This document shows positions 1,792 through 11,026 of a stretch of 11,635 bases of DNA, piece by piece. The translations under genes were made by a program, and so were the position numbers. Every line of letters begins with the position of its first letter. The stretch's first letter is position 1. The DNA lies in the IMG/VR virus record IMGVR_UViG_2660238190_000006; one strand, 5' to 3'. Below the pieces are notes generated by a model that was given only the letters and a program-made list of their open reading frames with translations, did not search any database and was not told the DNA's origin. The stretch is from a virus (lineage: Duplodnaviria; Heunggongvirae; Uroviricota; Caudoviricetes).

Positions 1792-1937
1792 TCACGCTGG
1801 CGGCACACAGCCGCCACACATCAATCATCTGAACACAGAGCTATAACCATGAAGATTGAATATACGCCAGAACGTGGGCGGGGATTCGTTCGCCCTGGTG
1901 AGACTGGAAAACCACAAAATTGGGGTTTTTCAGGCAT

Positions 1938-1970
1938 AAAAAAAGCGGCCCCGAAATGGAGCCGCCTTTC
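1938..1970 (-). terminator. Rho-independent terminator between convergent alpA and the minus-strand genes (strongest in minus orientation)
   Basis: Seen: A7-GCGGCC-loop-GCCGCC-TTTC on + strand, so on the minus strand a GC stem is followed by a T7 run. Lies about 95 bp downstream of the minus-strand ORF stop at 2061. Confidence 0.5.
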
Positions 1971-2060
1971 TGAACAGATAACACGCTGCGCCGTTTGTGT
2001 GTGTGATCCCAAACATAAGCACGGGGATGATAGCCGCTATCAGGCTGGTGGGCAATGCAA

Positions 2061-2249
2061 TCAGTCTGGTTCAGTTCGTTGCCATACCTGCAATGAGCGC
2101 TTTTCCCTGTACTCTTTAAGGAATTGCTCAAGGGCAAAAGCACATGGCGCGAATCTTTCTGATTCATGCTCTATCTTTCTGCGCCGTCTTTTCCGTGCCG
2201 GTGATAATGTTTTGGTCAATTCTTTATCGGTCATTGTGTTGTCCTGCAT
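2061..2249 (-). CDS. Small basic hypothetical protein (62 aa; alternative start at 2234 with AGGA RBS)
   Basis: ORF with Arg/Lys-rich stretch ARKRRRRKIEHE. In the same reading frame as the upstream RHH ORF, separated only by a TAA and 14 sense codons. Followed by the 1938-1970 terminator. No family recognised. Confidence 0.4.
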   Translation of the reverse strand: MQDNTMTDKELTKTLSPARKRRRRKIEHESERFAPCAFALEQFLKEYREKRSLQVWQRTEPD

Positions 2250-2291
2250 AGCAATGCGCCGTAATACCTCACACCACGGCGCTGATAGTTT

Positions 2292-2483
2292 TTATCCTTT
2301 GGGTTCTATACCGCGCCGCTTTAGTTCAGTACGCCCCAACTCTTTAAGCCAGTTGGCTAGGCTTATGCCGTCGCTCTGTGCTTCTTTATCGAATTGCTCT
2401 TTTAGCTCTGGAGAAATTCGCATTCTGAATTGTGGGGATTGCCCGTCCCCTTTAGGGCTTTTATCGCGTTTGATTGTTGACAA
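2292..2483 (-). CDS. Ribbon-helix-helix (CopG/Arc-like) DNA-binding protein, antitoxin-like
   Basis: 63-aa ORF with TTG start preceded by GGTGA. Segment FRMRISPELKEQFDKEAQSDGISLANWLKELG fits a beta-strand/helix/helix RHH fold pattern. Call is inferred from pattern only. Confidence 0.5.
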   Translation of the reverse strand: MSTIKRDKSPKGDGQSPQFRMRISPELKEQFDKEAQSDGISLANWLKELGRTELKRRGIEPKG

Positions 2484-2617
2484 GTGGTCACCTATTGAAT
2501 TAGCCTTTCTATTGTTAGGTGGTCACCTTAACACAAGAGCACTTAAAAAAGCAAAGCCCCGCAAGTGTCATTACCACTCGCAGGGCTTCTAACCAACAAC
2601 GTAAACTAGGAGCCGTT

Positions 2618-3705: not shown

Positions 3706-4005
3706 ATGAAACTTAAATATTCTGGCTTAACTGCCAGTGGCAACACTCACCCTAAATTTACGCGCGGTGATATTTACCGCGACCAGTACGGCGGCACGGT
3801 AATGATTAAGGGCGTGGAAGAACGGCGCGTAACCTACCGCCGTGAAGGTTACGAATATGATTGCGTGATGCCTGTTTATCAGTTCCGGCGTGATTTTTCT
3901 CTGGTACAGACCGCGCCGCATAACGTGCCCACCAGCAACGCCAGGGCACGGGCAAACATCCAGAAGCTGAAAACCATGGTTAACGGATTCAGGGGCAAGA
4001 AATGA
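3706..4005 (+). CDS. Hypothetical protein (99 aa)
   Basis: RBS GGAGA about 10 nt upstream; stop overlaps the replicase start (ATGA). No family recognised. Confidence 0.6.
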   Translation: MKLKYSGLTASGNTHPKFTRGDIYRDQYGGTVMIKGVEERRVTYRREGYEYDCVMPVYQFRRDFSLVQTAPHNVPTSNARARANIQKLKTMVNGFRGKK

Positions 4006-5402
4006 AAAGCGCACCGAACTTAAAAAAACAGCCTTACGACAAGATGACCGAAGTCATCATTTTTGCGGGTAGTGATGCGTGGGCACATGCGAAACAGTGG
4101 CAGGAACAGGACGGGCGACTGGCTGGCGATAATGTGCCTCCCATTGTGCTGGCTGATGATCAACTGGATGAACTGGCAGACCTGAGAATCATCGACGAGG
4201 GGCGCTATTGTGTCCGGCTGTACAAGGCAGGCCACATCAGGCCATCAAATATTAATGCCATTGCGCACAAGCTGGCGGCGGCGGGCGTAACTGATGCGAA
4301 TTATTACCCCGAAGGGATGCACAGCCATATGCGGGAGAACTGGCGCGAATACCTGGAACGGGTGCGCGGGAAAGAGCCGGCGGAAGAAAAAAACCACCAG
4401 CGAAAAACCACGCTACCGATGAGCGTTGGATCTACCGGATACGACACGCAACTGGATTACGTGGTTAAGGGGATTATTCCGGCGGTATCGCTATGCAGCA
4501 TATACGGGGCTAGCGGGTCCTATAAATCATTCCTTGCCGGATCGTGGGCGTGCCATGTTGCCACTGGTCGCCAGTGGGGAGGCCGCAGGGTTGCACATGG
4601 TGCGGTTCTCTATGTGGTTGGTGAAGGCGGTATAGGTGTTCCGCGTCGTGTAAAAGCCTGGGAGGTTGTGCACGATGAGCAGGTGAAAAATCTGTATCTG
4701 GTAAACCGCCCCATCTTTCCGGCTGCCCCGCTTGATGTTGATGAAATGGTTATCGCTGCCCGTCAGGTGGAGCGGGAAACGGGTAAACCTGTACGCATGA
4801 TTATTCTGGATACGCTGGCGCGTTGCTTTGGTGGGAATGATGAAAATGATTCCCGTGATATGGGGGCGTTTATCCGTGGTTGTGACGAACTGAAACGACG
4901 CACAGGGGCCACGGTGCTGGTGGTTCACCATTCCGGCAAGGATGAGACGAAAGGCGCGCGCGGTTCCAGTGCATTTCGTGCTTCGCTGGATGCTGAATAC
5001 CGGATACGCAGGGAGGACGCAGGAAGCGAAGCGCTGGTTATCTCATGCACCAAAATGAAGGACGCGGAGGAACTCAAAGAAGCCGCATATGACTTACGCG
5101 TGGTGGAGCTTTTTACCGACGCTGACGGTGAATTAATCACGTCGCTGGTGGTGGTGGATGATCCGCGCCCTCCTGTTGAACTGGAGCGCATCGAGGAGGC
5201 AGGGAACAAGACGGAAAACCATACCGCGCTATGGGGGTGCATCCGTTCACGCACACAGAACGGCGACAAGTGCACGATCCAGATGTTACGTGATGACATG
5301 AAAAAGCTGGGGTATGAAATGAAAAACTTCCGGCGCTGGCTGTACAAGCTGGAAAAAGATGGGGTTATTCGTATCGATGGGGATGATGTAGCGCCGCTAT
5401 AA
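4002..5402 (+). CDS. Replication protein: RecA/DnaB-like P-loop ATPase (RepA/AAA_25-type helicase) with an N-terminal domain of unknown function
   Basis: 466-aa ORF. Walker A GASGSYKS (in IYGASGSYKSFLAG), Walker B-like hydrophobic-D stretch MIILDTLARCFGG, and HHSGKD (sensor-like) typical of RepA/DnaB-family replicative ATPases found in satellite pri-rep modules. Iteron cluster lies immediately downstream. Confidence 0.8.
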   Translation: MKSAPNLKKQPYDKMTEVIIFAGSDAWAHAKQWQEQDGRLAGDNVPPIVLADDQLDELADLRIIDEGRYCVRLYKAGHIRPSNINAIAHKLAAAGVTDANYYPEGMHSHMRENWREYLERVRGKEPAEEKNHQRKTTLPMSVGSTGYDTQLDYVVKGIIPAVSLCSIYGASGSYKSFLAGSWACHVATGRQWGGRRVAHGAVLYVVGEGGIGVPRRVKAWEVVHDEQVKNLYLVNRPIFPAAPLDVDEMVIAARQVERETGKPVRMIILDTLARCFGGNDENDSRDMGAFIRGCDELKRRTGATVLVVHHSGKDETKGARGSSAFRASLDAEYRIRREDAGSEALVISCTKMKDAEELKEAAYDLRVVELFTDADGELITSLVVVDDPRPPVELERIEEAGNKTENHTALWGCIRSRTQNGDKCTIQMLRDDMKKLGYEMKNFRRWLYKLEKDGVIRIDGDDVAPL

Positions 5403-5593
5403 AAGTGAGGAGCAAAAGCGAGGGGGATAGAAAGAGGGCCAAAATTAGCCCGCTCCCCCTCACTTTTCGACCTGTATACATCCTCAAAAGTGAGGGGTAA
5501 AAAAATACTTATGAAACACACACATAGAAAAACCGAAAATCCCAACTGCGACGAAGTGAGACGCTTGAAAAAGTGAGGCGAAAAAGTGAGAGG
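5401..5593. promoter_or_regulatory. Iteron cluster (AAAGTGAGG repeats, both orientations) with an AT-rich spacer; putative replication origin and/or operator
   Basis: Seen: AAAAGTGAGG at 5401-5410, inverted copy at 5455-5467, AAAAGTGAGGGG 5486-5497, GAAGTGAGAC 5553-5562, AAAAAGTGAGG 5568-5578, AAAAAGTGAGAGG 5581-5593, plus degenerate AAAGCGAGGGGGA 5415-5427. An AT-rich tract at 5497-5545 lies between copies. Position directly 3' of the replicase gene is typical for satellite/PICI origins (inference). Confidence 0.55.
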
Positions 5594-5602
5594 TTGCGAG
5601 AA

Positions 5603-5854
5603 ATGACCCAAAAACGCAGAGACAGAACAGAGCCAAAATATAAAGCGTTAGACATGACTGAGCACACCTTAAAGGTGGCAATCAGAACGATAGACCGCCA
5701 CACGCGGGAAGGATACGCGAAGGAACATCCCGACCTGATAAGCGCATTCATGACCACGGCGGCGGCAAACTTTGCCACGCTGACAGAACGGGAGATTGCC
5801 GAAGCGGAACAGGTAACAACCATCAACGTTAAAACCGGAGAGTTGGAATCATGA
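5603..5854 (+). CDS. Hypothetical protein (83 aa)
   Basis: ATG 5603 with RBS GAGAGG (inside the last iteron); the tracked ORF's upstream start at 5573 lies within the iterons and was rejected. No family recognised. Confidence 0.55.
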   Translation: MTQKRRDRTEPKYKALDMTEHTLKVAIRTIDRHTREGYAKEHPDLISAFMTTAAANFATLTEREIAEAEQVTTINVKTGELES

Positions 5855-6156
5855 GCGAACCAAAATTTGGTGAAAAACTTTACAAGCACAACGGACGGAT
5901 CACGATTCAGCAAATAAGCGCAGCTACACCAGGCTGGTGGGTTGAAACAGACGAAGGATCCTCACCCGTGGCATCATGGGCGCTTTGTGTGCTTAGTTAC
6001 CCTGACCGCGATGTGTATCAGGATATTCTGCCTGTGATATCCACTGATAAAGGCATGAAGCCCGTAGACATCAAAAACATGGGTTTTCAGTGCGTAATGC
6101 TCACTGAAAAAATGATGGAAGAGATGAAAAAGAACAACGCCGGATCGCTTCACTGA
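5851..6156 (+). CDS. Hypothetical protein (101 aa)
   Basis: ATGA overlap with the upstream gene; RBS GGAGAG 9 nt upstream. No family recognised. Confidence 0.6.
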   Translation: MSEPKFGEKLYKHNGRITIQQISAATPGWWVETDEGSSPVASWALCVLSYPDRDVYQDILPVISTDKGMKPVDIKNMGFQCVMLTEKMMEEMKKNNAGSLH

Positions 6157-6165
6157 GGTGGCAAT

Positions 6166-6576
6166 ATGACAGCACAAATTGCAGCTTACGGGCGGCTGGT
6201 GGACGACCCGCAGGTAAAACAGACCAGCAAGGGTACACCGATGACGCTGGCGCGTATGGCGGTATCGCTGCCATGCAGCCAGGCACAGGATGGACAGGCG
6301 ACGTTATGGCTATCGGTCATCGCATTTGGTAAGCAGGCCGACTTCCTGGCTAAACATCAAAAAGGCGACGTTGCCAGCGTATCCGGCACGATGCAGGTCA
6401 GCCAGTGGACCGGACAGAACGGGGAAACGCGGCAGGGTTATCAGGTTATTGCAGACAGCGTAATCAGTGCCCGTGCGGCACGTCCTGGTGGGAGCCGACG
6501 CAAGACCACAGGCACACAGGGTAATCAGCCACCAGCGGGAGGCGATGACCCTTACGGTGATGATATTCCGTTCTGA
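6166..6576 (+). CDS. ssb: Single-stranded DNA-binding protein (SSB-like)
   Basis: 136-aa ORF. OB-fold-like N-terminal region, Gly/Gln/Pro-rich linker and C-terminal acidic tip DDPYGDDIPF, matching the conserved DDDIPF tail of bacterial SSB. RBS GAGGTGG upstream. Confidence 0.75.
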   Translation: MTAQIAAYGRLVDDPQVKQTSKGTPMTLARMAVSLPCSQAQDGQATLWLSVIAFGKQADFLAKHQKGDVASVSGTMQVSQWTGQNGETRQGYQVIADSVISARAARPGGSRRKTTGTQGNQPPAGGDDPYGDDIPF

Positions 6577-6588
6577 GGGGTGGGGACG

Positions 6589-6861
6589 ATGGTACATGAC
6601 CGCATAGCGGAAGAACTGGAGGCGAAAGGCTTTTACCGGAGAGCGTCGGCGCGATGGGGTGAAGTCATGCAACTGGTGGAGACAGACAAGGAACGGCATC
6701 ACATCACGATGCGACGGCTGGAATGTTCCAGGAAGGCACAGAGGCCACCGGAGCCGCCGGATAATTACGGAGACCTGAAAAAGGCGGTCGATCGCACTTA
6801 TGCCGAAATGGGTATGGATGGTGCTGGTGATGAAATATGGCGAAATTACCAGGACAGATAA
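6589..6861 (+). CDS. PerC-family-like transcriptional activator (tentative)
   Basis: About 90-aa ORF. AEELEAKGFYRRASARWGEVM resembles the PerC/Pch N-terminal signature (LE..G.WRRAA..W) as remembered. ATG 6589 with GAGGGG RBS is preferred over GTG 6580. Followed by a terminator. Confidence 0.5.
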   Translation: MVHDRIAEELEAKGFYRRASARWGEVMQLVETDKERHHITMRRLECSRKAQRPPEPPDNYGDLKKAVDRTYAEMGMDGAGDEIWRNYQDR

Positions 6862-8918: not shown

Positions 8919-10438
8919 TATGTGGCCTTTCCAGGGTGTGCCCGCACGTAAAAGGGCCGATGCGTGGCAGACCCATTGAGCTGGAGCCGTGGCAGCAGTT
9001 CGCCTTTGCGTGCATCCTCGGCTTTAAGGTTAAGGCCACCGGACGGCGCAAATACACGAGCGCCTTTATCGAAGTGCCGCGCAAAAATGCGAAATCCACG
9101 ACCGCCGCGATTCTGGCTAACTGGTTTCTGATTATGGAGAACGGTCAGCAGGATATCTACACCGCAGCGGTGAGCCGTGACCAGGCGCGGATCGTCTTTG
9201 ATGATGCGCGTCAGATGTGCCTTTTATCCCGACCGTTACGCAGGCGGGTGAATATTCAGGCGCATAAGGTGATGCACCCGAAAAGCAACAGCCTGTTAAA
9301 GCCGCTGGCAGCAAAAGCGGCAACCATCGAGGGAACAAACCCCAGCCTTTCCATCGTGGACGAATACCACTTGCACCCCGATAACGGCGTTTATTCCGCG
9401 CTTGAGCTGGGGATGGGCGCACGCCCCGAAGGGCTGTTATTTGCTATTACCACATCAGGCAGTAACGTCGTTTCAGCCTGTAAGCAGCACTATGATTATT
9501 GCTGCCAGATCCTGGACGGCGAAGAGGTCAACGATTCAATTTTTGTACTGATTTACGAACTGGACGACGAAAACGAGGTTGATGATCCGGCGATGTGGAT
9601 AAAGGCGAACCCTAATATTGATGTTTCCGTGGATCGTGAAAAACTGGCCTCAACCATCCAGAAAGCGCGGGGTATTCCGTCGCAGTGGGTGGAGATGATG
9701 ACAAAGCGATTTAATATCTGGTGCCAGGGGGCTACCCCGTGGATGGGTAACGGCGCATGGGCTGAGTGTGCCGGAACGTTCACGGAGGAAGATTTACACG
9801 GCCAGGAGTGTTACGCGGGGCTGGACTTATCATCAACCAGCGATATTTCCAGCGTGTGCTATGCCTTTCCGGTCGGTAAAACCATTATGCTGGTTTCCCG
9901 TCACTATCTGCCGGAATTTCAGCTACAGAACCCCGCCAATAAAAACCGCGCCATCTATCGTCAGTGGGCTAAAGCAGGCTGGATACGCACAACGCCTGGC
10001 GACTGCATTGATTACGACCGGATCAGAGATGACATCATGCAGGACGCGGAGAAATTTAATATCAGGCTGGTGGGCTTTGATACGTGGAACGCCACGCATC
10101 TCAGAACGCAATTACAGGGGGCAGGTTTTGAGGTGGAGCCGTTCCCGCAAACCTACCTCAGATTCAGTCCGGCGGCGAAATCGTTCGAAGTTTTTGTTAA
10201 CCGCAGGGTGATTGTGCATCGTGGCGATCCGGTGTTGTCCTGGTCGATGAGTAACGTCGTGATGCAGAGTGACGCGAACGCCAATATCAAGCCGAACAAG
10301 AAAAAATCACCGAACAAGATAGACCCGAGCGTGGCGGCGCTGATGGCGTTTGGTACATTCCAGGCAGAGCATGAGGATTTTGCTTTTGATATAAGCGACA
10401 GCCACCGCCAGAAACTGGAAGAATTTAGCGGGGTGTAA
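8894..10438 (+). CDS. Terminase large subunit (Terminase_1 / COG4626-type), with a short N-terminus
   Basis: Motifs recognised: LEPWQQF; P-loop EVPRKNAKSTTAA; AAVSRDQARIVF; Walker B SIVDEYHLH; ITTSG; WIKANPNIDVSV; GLDLSSTSD; C-terminal KPNKKKSPNKIDPSVAALMAF. Start ambiguous (GTG 8894 overlapping the protease end, GTG 8936, or ATG 8960). Confidence 0.85.
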   Translation: MGGFSGGVICGLSRVCPHVKGPMRGRPIELEPWQQFAFACILGFKVKATGRRKYTSAFIEVPRKNAKSTTAAILANWFLIMENGQQDIYTAAVSRDQARIVFDDARQMCLLSRPLRRRVNIQAHKVMHPKSNSLLKPLAAKAATIEGTNPSLSIVDEYHLHPDNGVYSALELGMGARPEGLLFAITTSGSNVVSACKQHYDYCCQILDGEEVNDSIFVLIYELDDENEVDDPAMWIKANPNIDVSVDREKLASTIQKARGIPSQWVEMMTKRFNIWCQGATPWMGNGAWAECAGTFTEEDLHGQECYAGLDLSSTSDISSVCYAFPVGKTIMLVSRHYLPEFQLQNPANKNRAIYRQWAKAGWIRTTPGDCIDYDRIRDDIMQDAEKFNIRLVGFDTWNATHLRTQLQGAGFEVEPFPQTYLRFSPAAKSFEVFVNRRVIVHRGDPVLSWSMSNVVMQSDANANIKPNKKKSPNKIDPSVAALMAFGTFQAEHEDFAFDISDSHRQKLEEFSGV

Positions 10439-10733: not shown

Positions 10734-11026
10734 CTGGTTGATATTCCCGACGGACCAAAAATGGGTGGCTACATCCCTCGCTTCTGAGGACTGTTAACAA
10801 GCTGCCTGAAAGACAGTCACAAACTACGAAATTTTCGCAGTTTAATTAATGATCAGCTTAATCGCTAACCCGCTGATATTTTCGGAAACCTCAATTTGAG
10901 GAAGTCGGCGCGGTAACTCGCTGAACTTTAAGCAAAGTGCAAAATTGCGCTTGCTGAATAATCATTATGATTACGCAGATGATTAAGGAATGACCGAAGG
11001 CGGAAATTCGCCTGTGGTTAATGGGG

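What the first reader, a model, noticed from the sequence alone, without database searches (positions are those of the whole stretch)
5401..5593. Iteron cluster immediately 3' of the replicase: probable satellite origin of replication
Six to seven copies of AAAGTGAGG in both orientations flank an AT-rich tract directly after the RepA-like gene. This matches the organisation of SaPI/PICI origins, where the origin follows pri-rep. The last iteron overlaps the RBS of the next gene, so the same sites could also autoregulate downstream expression.
Basis: partly seen in the sequence, partly recalled or inferred. Interest (0 to 1): 0.6.

Follow-up and report, generated by a model that had tools for sequence, protein, structure and literature searches.

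The report
Replication origin of a phage satellite
The repeat cluster just after the replicase gene is almost certainly the replication origin of an E. coli phage satellite (a capsid-forming PICI), a known kind of origin, and comparison with about 90 relatives suggests that one amino acid of the replicase sets which repeat sequence it recognises.

Summary
Seven strong copies of (A)AAAG[T/C]GAG(G) lie in 5400-5593, six on the + strand and one on the - strand, and none lies elsewhere in 11.6 kb. About 0.014 copies are expected per 200 nt. The window is an E. coli capsid-forming PICI: integrase, AlpA-like regulator, DUF4222, RepA-family helicase, SSB, PerC, capsid, protease and TerL.

The cluster has the published PICI origin layout. 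It starts at the rep stop codon and has two iteron sets around the least stable DNA of the spacer. About 60 of 80 Enterobacterales relatives keep the same positional layout while the iteron sequence changes.

The iteron base co-varies with Rep residue 442, which sits at the start of the recognition helix of a predicted C-terminal winged helix. Asn goes with GTGAGG, His or Lys with GTGGGG, and Arg-Lys-Ser/Gly with GTGCGG. This holds in 78 of 79 loci, and 7 of 8 predictions made in advance were met. One pair of Reps differs in the C-terminal domain only at this residue.

Rep(119-466) plus the iterons is swapped as one cassette relative to EcCICFT073, whose origin at the same position was shown experimentally, and relative to EcCIEDL933.

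Verdict: a Rep-cognate origin and a new member of a known kind. The suggested control through the RBS is unsupported.

The parts
4002..5402 (+). rep: a 466-aa initiator-helicase. Residues 1-125 form an N-terminal domain shared with other PICI Rep types, about 140-390 a RepA/AAA_25 RecA-fold helicase core, and about 400-466 a winged-helix DNA-binding domain.
   Evidence: Pfam AAA_25 at 2.4e-43. Weak match to RSF1010 RepA 1g8y. Foldseek places the core with the RecA/Rad51/RadA fold and T7 gp4. AF2 gives the CTD a pLDDT of about 90, and its best fold matches are winged-helix domains.
5325..5327 (+). Codon of Asn442, the residue just before recognition helix H3 (443-452). It is the proposed specificity residue that reads the variable iteron base.
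   Evidence: Co-variation N->A, H/K->G and RK[S/G]->C holds in 78/79 loci. The pair P0047/P0004 differs in the CTD only at this residue.
5400..5425 (+). Left iteron set: iteron 1 (5400-5412, overlapping the TAA stop) and iteron 2 (5413-5425, the AAAGCGAGG variant). A degenerate third copy lies at about 5426-5438.
   Evidence: The same positions (+0, +11, +21 from the stop) hold in about 60 relatives.
5456..5497 (.). Central palindrome: inverted iteron 3 (5456-5468, - strand), an 18-nt spacer CGACCTGTATACATCCTC with the conserved TGTATA(C/T)A core, and iteron 4 (5485-5497, +). It is a candidate site for head-to-head Rep assembly and first melting.
   Evidence: Perfect 12-nt inverted repeat. As single-stranded DNA it folds with dG -11.2 kcal/mol, z -5.3. 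An inverted pair with a TATA-rich spacer about 50 nt after the stop is present in about 60 loci whatever the iteron sequence.
5497..5550 (.). A-rich, low-stability tract (TAAAAAAATACTTATGAAACACACACATAGAAAAACCGAAAATCCC), the probable DNA-unwinding region between the two iteron sets.
   Evidence: GC 0.37-0.40. Stability minimum of the intergenic region at 5495-5520. The block AAAAAA..CTTATGAAACA is invariant in 6 E. coli variants of both iteron classes.
5551..5601 (+). Right iteron set: iterons 5 (5551-5563), 6 (5568-5580) and 7 (5581-5593), plus a degenerate copy at about 5594-5601. The last copies double as the Shine-Dalgarno region of the next gene.
5603..5854 (+). Downstream 83-aa gene (phrog_1231, function unknown). 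It marks the right boundary of the swapped rep-ori cassette and is 74% identical to its EcCICFT073 counterpart.
4357..5600 (+). The rep-ori cassette: the stretch with no homology to EcCICFT073 or to Sakai Sp7/EcCIEDL933, although both flanks are homologous. It comprises the helicase, the winged helix and all iterons.
   Evidence: In blastn of the window against L096 and L082, homology stops at 4356/4367 and resumes at 5601/5675.

Best explanation
5400-5601 is the vegetative replication origin of a capsid-forming phage-inducible chromosomal island, and the Rep protein encoded just upstream (4002-5402) recognises it. The proposed mechanism has four steps, all inferred.

1. After induction and excision, Rep binds the 9-12-bp iterons through its C-terminal winged helix. 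Residue Asn442, at the start of the recognition helix, reads the variable A of AAGTG-A-GG.
2. Rep molecules on the left set (5400-5425), the head-to-head pair (5456-5497) and the right set (5551-5601) oligomerise and distort the DNA.
3. The TGTATACA core and/or the adjacent A-rich tract (5497-5550) melts.
4. The RecA-fold RepA-type helicase domain loads itself on the single strand as a ring, without DnaA or a separate loader. Host or helper enzymes then prime and elongate.

Three things are shown here: the repeats, their non-random clustering and conserved layout, their concerted change together with one Rep residue, and the inheritance of helicase, winged helix and iterons as one cassette. 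Binding, melting, helicase loading and the requirement for replication are inferred.
For: 1. Statistics: seven sites all within 5400-5593, P about 5e-13.

2. Context: integrase, DUF4222, RepA helicase, SSB, PerC, capsid, protease and TerL. The element sits inside tqsA in near-identical E. coli elements.

3. Literature: PICI origins lie immediately 3' of rep, with two iteron sets around an AT-rich region. The EcCICFT073 pri-ori segment drives plasmid maintenance, and deleting ori or rep reduces or abolishes it (PMC6092414). SaPI Rep binds iterons through a C-terminal winged helix (PMC9371898).

4. Synteny: the EcCICFT073 origin lies in the syntenic gap between rep and the homologue of the gene at 5603-5854, but with different iterons (GGTAGACAG) and an unrelated Rep body. 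Sakai Sp7/EcCIEDL933 has a third Rep body and TAACCCGCA iterons. Homology breaks exactly around Rep(119-466) plus the iterons.

5. Conserved layout: about 60 of 80 Enterobacterales loci keep the iteron positions (+0, +11, +21, -52, +82, +142 to +190 from the stop) although the sequences differ.

6. Co-variation: KNF goes with GTGAGG, KHF/KKF with GTGGGG and RK[S/G]F with GTGCGG in 78/79 loci. All copies in a locus change together, even within alignable E. coli origins. Seven of eight predictions made from the Rep sequence before reading the DNA were met. P0047 and P0004 differ in the 75-aa CTD only at this residue and have GTGAGG x8 and GTGGGG x8 respectively. On a helicase-core tree the residue changes at least 12 times, the base at least 12 times and the pair only 13 times.

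7. Structure: the CTD is a confident winged helix (pLDDT 85.6) whose best structural matches are DNA-bound winged helices and the ORC/MCM WH domains.

8. No DnaA box or IHF consensus in 5380-5620, which fits a self-loading initiator.

9. A Klebsiella relative is deposited as a 16,971-bp circular 'plasmid' with the same rep-ori layout.
Against: Nothing here is experimental for this cassette, and no paper found in the library tests a RepA-type PICI origin.

The A-rich tract is only moderately unstable and is not the least stable DNA in the window.

Only one iteron is inverted, so the arrangement described for SaPIs (opposite orientation on the two sides of the AT tract) is not reproduced exactly.

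One relative (Salmonella L090) has an Asn Rep with mixed GTGAG and GTGGG iterons. About 20 of the 80 loci show a weak array or none.

Co-variation proves a shared constraint between Rep and the repeats, not that the constraint is replication. Part of the apparent independence of switches may reflect recombination that moves CTD and ori together.

The full-length Rep model is poor in parts of the helicase core (mean pLDDT 68.7). The fold matches for the CTD have weak E-values (0.047 or more).

The window's element has lost its portal-to-terS genes, so it may no longer be mobile even if it can still replicate.
Confidence: 0.85

Rival explanations
1. Rep does bind the repeats, but they work mainly as operators or copy-control sites (autorepression, transcriptional roadblock or handcuffing) for the rightward operon. 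Replication would start elsewhere or depend on the helper phage.
For: The array lies inside a co-directional gene string, with no promoter and no + strand terminator predicted. The last copies overlap the Shine-Dalgarno region of the next gene in the E. coli clade. Iterons of plasmids are known to serve copy control as well as initiation (established knowledge; review PMC4980987). The co-variation fits any Rep-binding function equally well.
Against: The syntenic region of EcCICFT073 is needed for Rep-dependent plasmid maintenance (PMC6092414). The layout includes a conserved TA-rich core and a low-stability tract, which an operator does not need. The overlap with the RBS is not conserved in distant relatives. 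No other iteron-like cluster exists in the window to serve as the origin.
Confidence: 0.07
2. The repeats are binding sites for a different protein, such as the AlpA-like or PerC regulator, the small 83-aa product downstream, a host factor or a helper-phage protein, and Rep does not read them.
For: Nobody has shown binding. PerC and an HTH regulator are encoded in the element. The downstream 83-aa protein has no known function.
Against: The downstream gene, SSB and PerC are shared with EcCICFT073 and Sakai Sp7 at 74-93% identity, although those elements carry entirely different iterons. The iteron base tracks a single Rep residue, even between CTDs that are otherwise identical. The iterons travel with the Rep body in cassette swaps.
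Confidence: 0.04
3. The cluster is a packaging (cos/pac) or recombination site, or a chance low-complexity purine run.
For: Terminase small subunits also recognise short repeated sites, and the region is purine-rich (AT skew 0.3-0.6).
Against: Chance is excluded. The same array occurs in relatives with unrelated packaging modules (ClpP-capsid fusion type, lambda-like capsid type), and in this window, which has lost terS. In intact relatives terS lies about 7 kb away. The integrase att sites are at the element's ends.
Confidence: 0.02

Closest known systems
Gram-negative PICI replication origins (EcCICFT073 pri-rep-ori; Fillol-Salom et al. 2018, PMC6092414)
   Same: Same host species and same syntenic slot: DUF4222, then rep, then ori, then a small gene, SSB and PerC. 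The origin lies immediately 3' of rep and has two iteron sets around an AT-rich stretch. The first 125 residues of Rep are 62% identical.
   Different: The iterons differ (GGTAGACAG against AAAGTGAGG). The Rep body is unrelated: a 584-aa 'DNA primase family' protein against a 466-aa RepA/AAA_25 helicase with a winged helix. This cassette has not been tested experimentally in any paper I found.
SaPI origins and Rep / Pri-Rep self-loading helicases (Ubeda 2007, 2012; PMC9371898)
   Same: Short iterons (5-6 nt there, a 9-12 nt unit here) lie directly after rep on both sides of an AT-rich region. The initiator is itself the helicase and reads the iterons with a C-terminal winged helix. Each Rep is specific for its own origin.
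   Different: SaPI Reps are SF3/AAA+ helicases, whereas this Rep has a RecA-fold RepA (RSF1010-like, DnaB/gp4-related) core. Here only one iteron is inverted, and it forms a palindrome around a TGTATACA core rather than mirror-image sets across the AT tract.
EcCIEDL933 / Sakai Sp7, the prototype capsid-forming PICI (bioRxiv 10.1101/2022.09.08.507074)
   Same: The rest of the element is 93-97% identical: integrase, early genes, downstream small gene, SSB, PerC, capsid, protease and TerL.
   Different: It carries a 710-aa Rep and TAACCCGCA iterons in a 370-nt gap and integrates at roxA-phoQ rather than tqsA. The window has also lost the portal-to-terS genes.
Iteron plasmids (pPS10, RK2, F, R6K) and RSF1010
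   Same: Repeated initiator-binding sites lie next to an AT-rich unwinding element, and binding is through winged helices. The helicase core resembles RSF1010 RepA.
   Different: There is no Rep_3-type two-winged-helix initiator, no 17-22-bp iterons, and no DnaA box or IHF site. In RSF1010 the iterons are bound by RepC and the RepA helicase is a separate protein. Here the helicase and the origin-binding domain are one polypeptide.
Viral initiator-helicases at palindromic origins (SV40 large T antigen, papillomavirus E1)
   Same: Analogy only, from my own knowledge: short recognition elements in inverted orientation around a core that melts, flanked by an A/T tract, and a helicase that assembles head to head.
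   Different: These are unrelated proteins (SF3) from eukaryotic viruses. The resemblance is a lead and was not tested.

Membership tests
PICI replication origin (SaPI/EcCI type) | Lies immediately 3' of the replication initiator gene of a PICI | tested here: met
   Iteron 1 overlaps the rep stop codon at 5400-5402. The element has integrase, an AlpA-like HTH, rep and co-directional genes, and is flanked by tqsA halves in relatives.
PICI replication origin (SaPI/EcCI type) | [quoted passage not shown] | tested here: met
   Left sites lie at 5400-5497 and right sites at 5551-5601. Between them GC is 0.37-0.40 and the local stability minimum falls at 5495-5520.
PICI replication origin (SaPI/EcCI type) | [quoted passage not shown] | tested here: inconclusive
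   Orientations are + + - + | AT | + + + (+). Only 5458-5466 is inverted, and it pairs with 5487-5495 on the same side of the AT tract. Relatives share this pattern, and some Xenorhabdus loci add an inverted copy just before the right set.
PICI replication origin (SaPI/EcCI type) | Iterons are specific to the cognate Rep | tested here: met
   This was tested by comparison only. The iteron base tracks Rep residue 442 in 78/79 loci, 7 of 8 advance predictions were met, and Rep body plus ori are swapped as a cassette.
PICI replication origin (SaPI/EcCI type) | Rep-dependent autonomous replication of a rep-ori fragment; loss on ori deletion | not testable with these tools
   This has been shown only for EcCICFT073, SaPIbov1, SaPI1 and EfCIV583 (PMC6092414). 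A circular 17-kb Klebsiella relative deposited as a plasmid is weak indirect support.
SaPI-type Rep (SF3 self-loading helicase with C-terminal winged helix) | C-terminal winged-helix domain that reads the iterons | tested here: met
   The fold is predicted, not solved. AF2 gives H-H-H plus a beta hairpin for 405-465 at pLDDT about 90. Foldseek top hits are winged helices such as LexA-DNA, DtxR, ORC2 and MCM8 WH.
SaPI-type Rep (SF3 self-loading helicase with C-terminal winged helix) | SF3/AAA+ helicase core | tested here: not met
   The core is Pfam AAA_25 (RepA-like, RecA fold). The best PDB sequence match is RSF1010 RepA, and the best fold matches are Rad51/RadA and T7 gp4. It therefore works like a SaPI Rep but is not a member of that protein family.
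Capsid-forming PICI (cf-PICI) | A PICI early region plus its own capsid, protease, portal, connectors, HNH and terS/terL, with no tail genes | tested here: inconclusive
   Capsid, protease and TerL are present. Portal, head-closure, connector, HNH and terS, and the 5' end of terL, are deleted relative to L001 and Sakai Sp7 (junction 8928-8931). The window is a deletion derivative of a cf-PICI.
Iteron-plasmid origin (Rep_3 / DnaA-dependent) | A Rep_3-family initiator, 17-22-bp iterons and DnaA boxes | tested here: not met
   There is no Rep_3 hit. The repeat unit is 9-13 bp. There is no DnaA box with up to 1 mismatch in 5380-5620.

The most novel reading that the evidence does not exclude
Origin specificity in this widespread family of satellite replicons is set by a one-residue code at the N-cap of the winged-helix recognition helix. 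Asn reads A, His or Lys reads G, and an Arg-Lys-Ser/Gly variant reads C at the sixth base of AAGTG-N-GG. The residue and all 7-10 iterons have switched together a dozen or more times, sometimes with no other change in the domain. That would mean repeated selection for new, non-cross-reacting rep-ori pairs, for example to avoid competition or incompatibility between satellites sharing a cell. It would also give a natural, minimal system for reprogramming an initiator-helicase to a new origin with a single substitution.
Probability: 0.5. Interest if true: 0.55.

Novelty: new member of a known kind. Interest (0 to 1): 0.4.

Why it matters
The finding assigns a function to the 200-nt gap after rep in a satellite carried by roughly 8-9% of complete E. 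coli genomes (491 of 5,426 have this origin or a variant), including O157:H7 and other Shiga-toxin lineages. It delimits the rep-ori cassette (4357-5600) that recombination exchanges among PICIs. It also shows that a RecA-fold RepA-type helicase fused to a winged helix can take the role that SF3 Reps play in SaPIs, with the same origin design, which looks like convergence on one architecture.

The residue-to-base rule predicts which satellites can cross-activate each other's origins. It can be tested directly with a single point mutation (N442H) and a matching iteron swap.

Tried and rejected
1. Promoter and terminator scan of 5100-5900: no sigma-70 site. The only hit was a - strand terminator-like hairpin at 5436-5451, no more than shuffles give. 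A promoter/operator reading got no support.
2. Rfam over the whole window: no family. A non-coding RNA reading was dropped.
3. DnaA-box and IHF consensus searches: nothing in the origin with up to 1 mismatch.
4. Megablast of the window against phage genomes: only TerL matched. The element is not a known phage.
5. I first assumed the window was EcCIEDL933 itself, because O157:H7 genomes hold this origin at 99.6% identity. That was wrong. Sakai Sp7/EcCIEDL933 carries a different Rep and different iterons, so O157 strains carry the window's cassette at another locus.
6. The preprint's remark that EcCIEDL933 rep is 'identical' to that of EcCICFT073 or EcCIED1a holds only for the first 125 or so residues in my comparisons.
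7. The ED1a and EDL933 records were not in the collection, so I could not check whether the RepA-type origin is one of those drawn in Fig. 2a of PMC6092414. Figures are not held, and the supplements do not list iteron sequences.
8. Fold search with the full-length Rep model returned only RecA-fold hits and nothing for the end domains, so the CTD was modelled separately.
9. The conserved spacer element GAAACCCGCAT..ATTACTGGG, seen in other loci, was examined and is absent from the window. It was not pursued.
Full report
**Observation**

This is correct.

- With at most one mismatch the motif occurs at 5402, 5415, 5487, 5570 and 5583 on the + strand and at 5458 on the - strand. The only other match in the 11,635-nt window is a one-mismatch hit at 10889.
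- AAGTGAG adds a seventh copy at 5554.
- A weight matrix built from the seven copies scores them 13.5-19.5. The best score elsewhere is 10.0.
- About 0.014 copies of AAAGYGAG are expected in 200 nt and six are seen.
- In an unbiased scan, AAGTGAG at 5401-5600 is the most repeated 7-mer of any 200-nt window: 6 copies against at most 4 in 100 shuffles.
- Only one copy is inverted. With the copy at 5486-5497 it forms a perfect 12-nt inverted repeat across an 18-nt spacer.
- GC falls to 0.37-0.40 over 5475-5599. The least stable 20-mers of the gap lie at 5495-5520, though these are not the least stable in the whole window.
- The first copy overlaps the rep stop codon. The last copies lie over the Shine-Dalgarno region of the ATG at 5603.

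**What the window is**

The + strand encodes a tyrosine integrase (1-1218), a DUF4222 protein (3706-4005) and a 466-aa AAA_25/RepA-family helicase (4002-5402). It then encodes a small protein of unknown function (5603-5854), an SSB (6166-6576), a PerC regulator (6580-6861), an HK97-type capsid protein, a prohead protease and a large terminase.

Near-identical elements lie inside tqsA in E. coli chromosomes. Besides these genes they carry portal, head-closure, connector, HNH and terS genes. This is the gene set of capsid-forming PICIs (bioRxiv 10.1101/2022.09.08.507074).

The window has lost about 3.8 kb, from the end of the protease gene into terL, at a junction at 8928-8931. It is therefore a packaging-defective derivative.

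**What is known about such regions**

In PICIs of Gram-positive and Gram-negative bacteria the origin lies immediately 3' of rep. [quoted passage not shown] For EcCICFT073, a plasmid carrying pri-rep plus this region is maintained at the restrictive temperature, and deleting rep or ori abolishes or reduces maintenance (PMC6092414). SaPI Reps are self-loading helicases that read the iterons with a C-terminal winged helix (PMC9371898).

**Positional homology and cassette structure**

EcCICFT073 (L082) has the same gene order: DUF4222, rep, a 288-nt gap, a homologue of the gene at 5603-5854 (74% identity), SSB and PerC. Its Rep shares only residues 1-125 with the window's Rep (62%). The rest is unrelated, and its gap holds GGTAGACAG-type iterons.

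Sakai Sp7, which Table S2 of PMC6092414 equates with the EDL933 element, is 93-97% identical to the window over most of its length. It carries a third Rep (710 aa, same N-terminal domain at 66%) and TAACCCGCA iterons in both orientations.

In both comparisons DNA homology stops near 4356-4367 and resumes at 5601-5675. Helicase body, C-terminal domain and all iterons are therefore exchanged as one cassette. The right edge of that cassette is the start of the next gene.

**Conservation of layout**

A scan of one genome per species returned 80 loci with relatives of this Rep across Enterobacterales. The genera include Xenorhabdus, Photorhabdus, Serratia, Pectobacterium, Pantoea, Morganella, Yersinia, Kluyvera, Kosakonia and Citrobacter.

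In about 60 of them the most repeated 8-mer downstream of rep occupies the same positions relative to the stop codon: about 0, +11 and +21 (direct), +52 (inverted), +82 (direct), and +142 to +190 (three or four direct). The inverted and direct copies at +52 and +82 nearly always form a perfect inverted repeat. Its 14-22-nt spacer has a TGTATA(C/T)A or CATATATA centre, whatever the iteron sequence.

The rest show weak arrays or none, or the contig ends. Within E. coli, an alignment of six diverged origins shows the iterons, the TGTATA core and an A-rich block (AAAAAA..CTTATGAAACA) conserved while other spacers vary.

**Co-variation with Rep**

The iteron core is AAGTG-N-GG, and N differs among lineages. 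It tracks the residue before the Phe/Met/Leu of a C-terminal motif K-x-[FML]-x-[RK]-W-L, which is Asn442 in the window.

| Residue class in Rep | Iteron base N |
|---|---|
| Asn | A |
| His | G |
| Lys | G |
| Arg-Lys-Ser/Gly variant | C |

These assignments hold in 78 of the 79 loci that have at least four iterons. The single exception is Salmonella L090.

I derived the rule from the species scan and then tested it.

- Two E. coli origins alignable with the window but carrying GTGGG in every copy encode His.
- For eight Rep proteins I predicted the iteron from the protein before reading the DNA. Seven predictions were right. One, Salmonella L090 with Asn, has a mixed GTGAG/GTGGG array.
- P0047 and P0004 have identical 75-residue C-terminal domains apart from Asn versus His. 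Their origins carry GTGAGG eight times and GTGGGG eight times.
- On a neighbour-joining tree of the helicase core, parsimony needs at least 12 changes of the residue, at least 12 of the base and only 13 of the pair. The two characters therefore change on the same branches. Some of these events may be recombination that moves the domain and the origin together, which argues for the same linkage.

**Structure**

AlphaFold2 models residues 400-466 with pLDDT of about 90, both in the full-length run and in a run of the domain alone (85.6 overall). The topology is that of a winged helix: H405-419, a one-residue bridge, H426-435, H443-452 and a beta hairpin at 456-465.

Foldseek's best PDB matches are winged-helix domains: LexA on DNA, IclR, DtxR/IdeR and MarR regulators, linker histone, ORC2 and MCM8 WH domains. 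Probabilities are 0.9-0.99 and TM-scores 0.6-0.77, but E-values are only 0.05-0.2, as expected for 75 residues.

Residue 442 immediately precedes the third helix, which is the usual recognition helix. Asn pairing with adenine and Lys/His with guanine fits common protein-DNA contacts. That last point is general knowledge and was not tested here.

The helicase core is RecA-fold. It matches Pfam AAA_25, has a weak sequence match to RSF1010 RepA, and has fold matches to Rad51/RadA and T7 gp4. Parts of it are modelled poorly.

**Mechanism proposed**

Rep binds the iterons through its winged helix and oligomerises across the left set, the head-to-head pair and the right set. It opens the TGTATACA core and/or the A-rich tract at 5497-5550, and its own helicase domain loads there.

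The absence of DnaA boxes and IHF sites fits an initiator that needs no host loader. A Klebsiella relative deposited as a 16,971-bp circular plasmid has the same layout, with an RKSF Rep and AAGTGCGGC iterons. This is weak support for episomal existence. Binding, melting, loading and the requirement for replication are all inferences.

**Rivals**

- Rep-bound operator or copy-control array without origin function. This cannot be excluded by sequence, but it does not explain the conserved TA-rich core and unwinding tract, or the proven function of the syntenic EcCICFT073 region.
- Binding by another protein. The neighbouring genes are shared with elements that carry entirely different iterons, while the iterons follow a single Rep residue.
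- Packaging site. The array occurs with unrelated packaging modules and in this terS-less window.
- Chance. Excluded by the statistics above.

The last iterons do overlap the Shine-Dalgarno region of the next gene, and this holds across the E. coli clade. More distant relatives have a separate Shine-Dalgarno sequence. A DNA-bound protein cannot mask an RBS on RNA, and no promoter is predicted here. The purine-rich iteron core probably just serves also as a ribosome-binding sequence. A roadblock effect remains possible but untested.

**Novelty and score**

The kind of feature is established, so the finding is a correct identification rather than a discovery. I found no paper that tests or describes this particular cassette, a RepA-type RecA-fold helicase fused to a winged helix with AAAGTGAGG iterons. 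I could not see Fig. 2a of PMC6092414 to check whether it is drawn there.

The one-residue specificity rule and the conserved palindromic core are new details that can be tested with a point mutation. I rate it a new member of a known kind, with interest 0.4.

Noticed in passing
window 8928-8931 (junction); compare L001 12009-15833: The window lacks about 3.8 kb present in close relatives: portal, head-closure, head-tail connector, HNH, terS and the first ~150 nt of terL. The protease gene runs straight into terL with 4 nt of overlap, so this copy of the satellite probably cannot package itself.
   Followed up: partly
window 4002-4376 (Rep residues 1-125): The N-terminal domain of Rep is shared at 62-66% identity with two otherwise unrelated PICI Rep proteins (EcCICFT073 Pri-Rep and Sakai ECs_1582). 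It has an alternating strand-helix topology, a confident model (pLDDT 85-90) and invariant Glu17, Asp43 and Asp65. Pfam gives no hit and only a weak PHROG 'DNA primase' match. Its role (priming, or a partner of DUF4222?) is unknown.
   Followed up: partly
L027, L034, L046, L070, L079 and others, about +90 to +125 after the rep stop; L082 7170-7200: Many RepA-type origins, and also the unrelated EcCICFT073 origin, carry a conserved element GAAACCCGCAT..ATTACTGGG in the tract between the iteron sets. Its core resembles the TAACCCGCA iteron of Sakai Sp7/EcCIEDL933. The window has an A-rich block there instead. It may be a host-factor site or a trace of cross-talk between origin types.
   Followed up: partly
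L090 (Salmonella, SRR3081675 contig), 2101-2330: This is the one exception to the residue-base rule. Its Rep has Asn, but the origin mixes GTGAG and GTGGG iterons, and the inverted copy is of the GGGG type. It could be a recombinant or decaying origin, or a sign that Asn tolerates G.
   Followed up: no
L097 = CP018459.1 (K. pneumoniae pKp_Goe_795-4, 16,971 bp circular): A record deposited as a plasmid is in fact a capsid-forming PICI: integrase, RepA-type Rep, capsid and terminases. It also carries a gene annotated as a tape measure protein (10983-14390), which is unexpected in a satellite family described as tail-less.
   Followed up: partly
window 5470-5480 and the equivalent spacer in about 60 loci: The centre of the inverted iteron pair is always a TGTATA(C/T)A or CATATATA motif, in all four iteron classes. 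This points to a sequence requirement beyond low stability, for example the first melted base pairs or a priming signal.
   Followed up: partly
one search hits (e.g. NZ_CP015843.2 at 1634692) against L096 (Sakai Sp7): O157:H7 genomes hold this window's origin at 99.6% identity at a locus other than Sp7/EcCIEDL933. These strains therefore carry two related satellites with different rep-ori cassettes (AAAGTGAGG and TAACCCGCA), as expected if distinct origin specificities allow co-residence.
   Followed up: no
window 1849-2592 (+) and 5851-6156 (+): A 247-aa ORF has no Pfam or PHROG family at all. A 101-aa ORF (phrog_27268) is absent from L001, Sakai Sp7 and EcCICFT073, because homology skips window 5855-6154 in all three. 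Both are candidate accessory genes.
   Followed up: no
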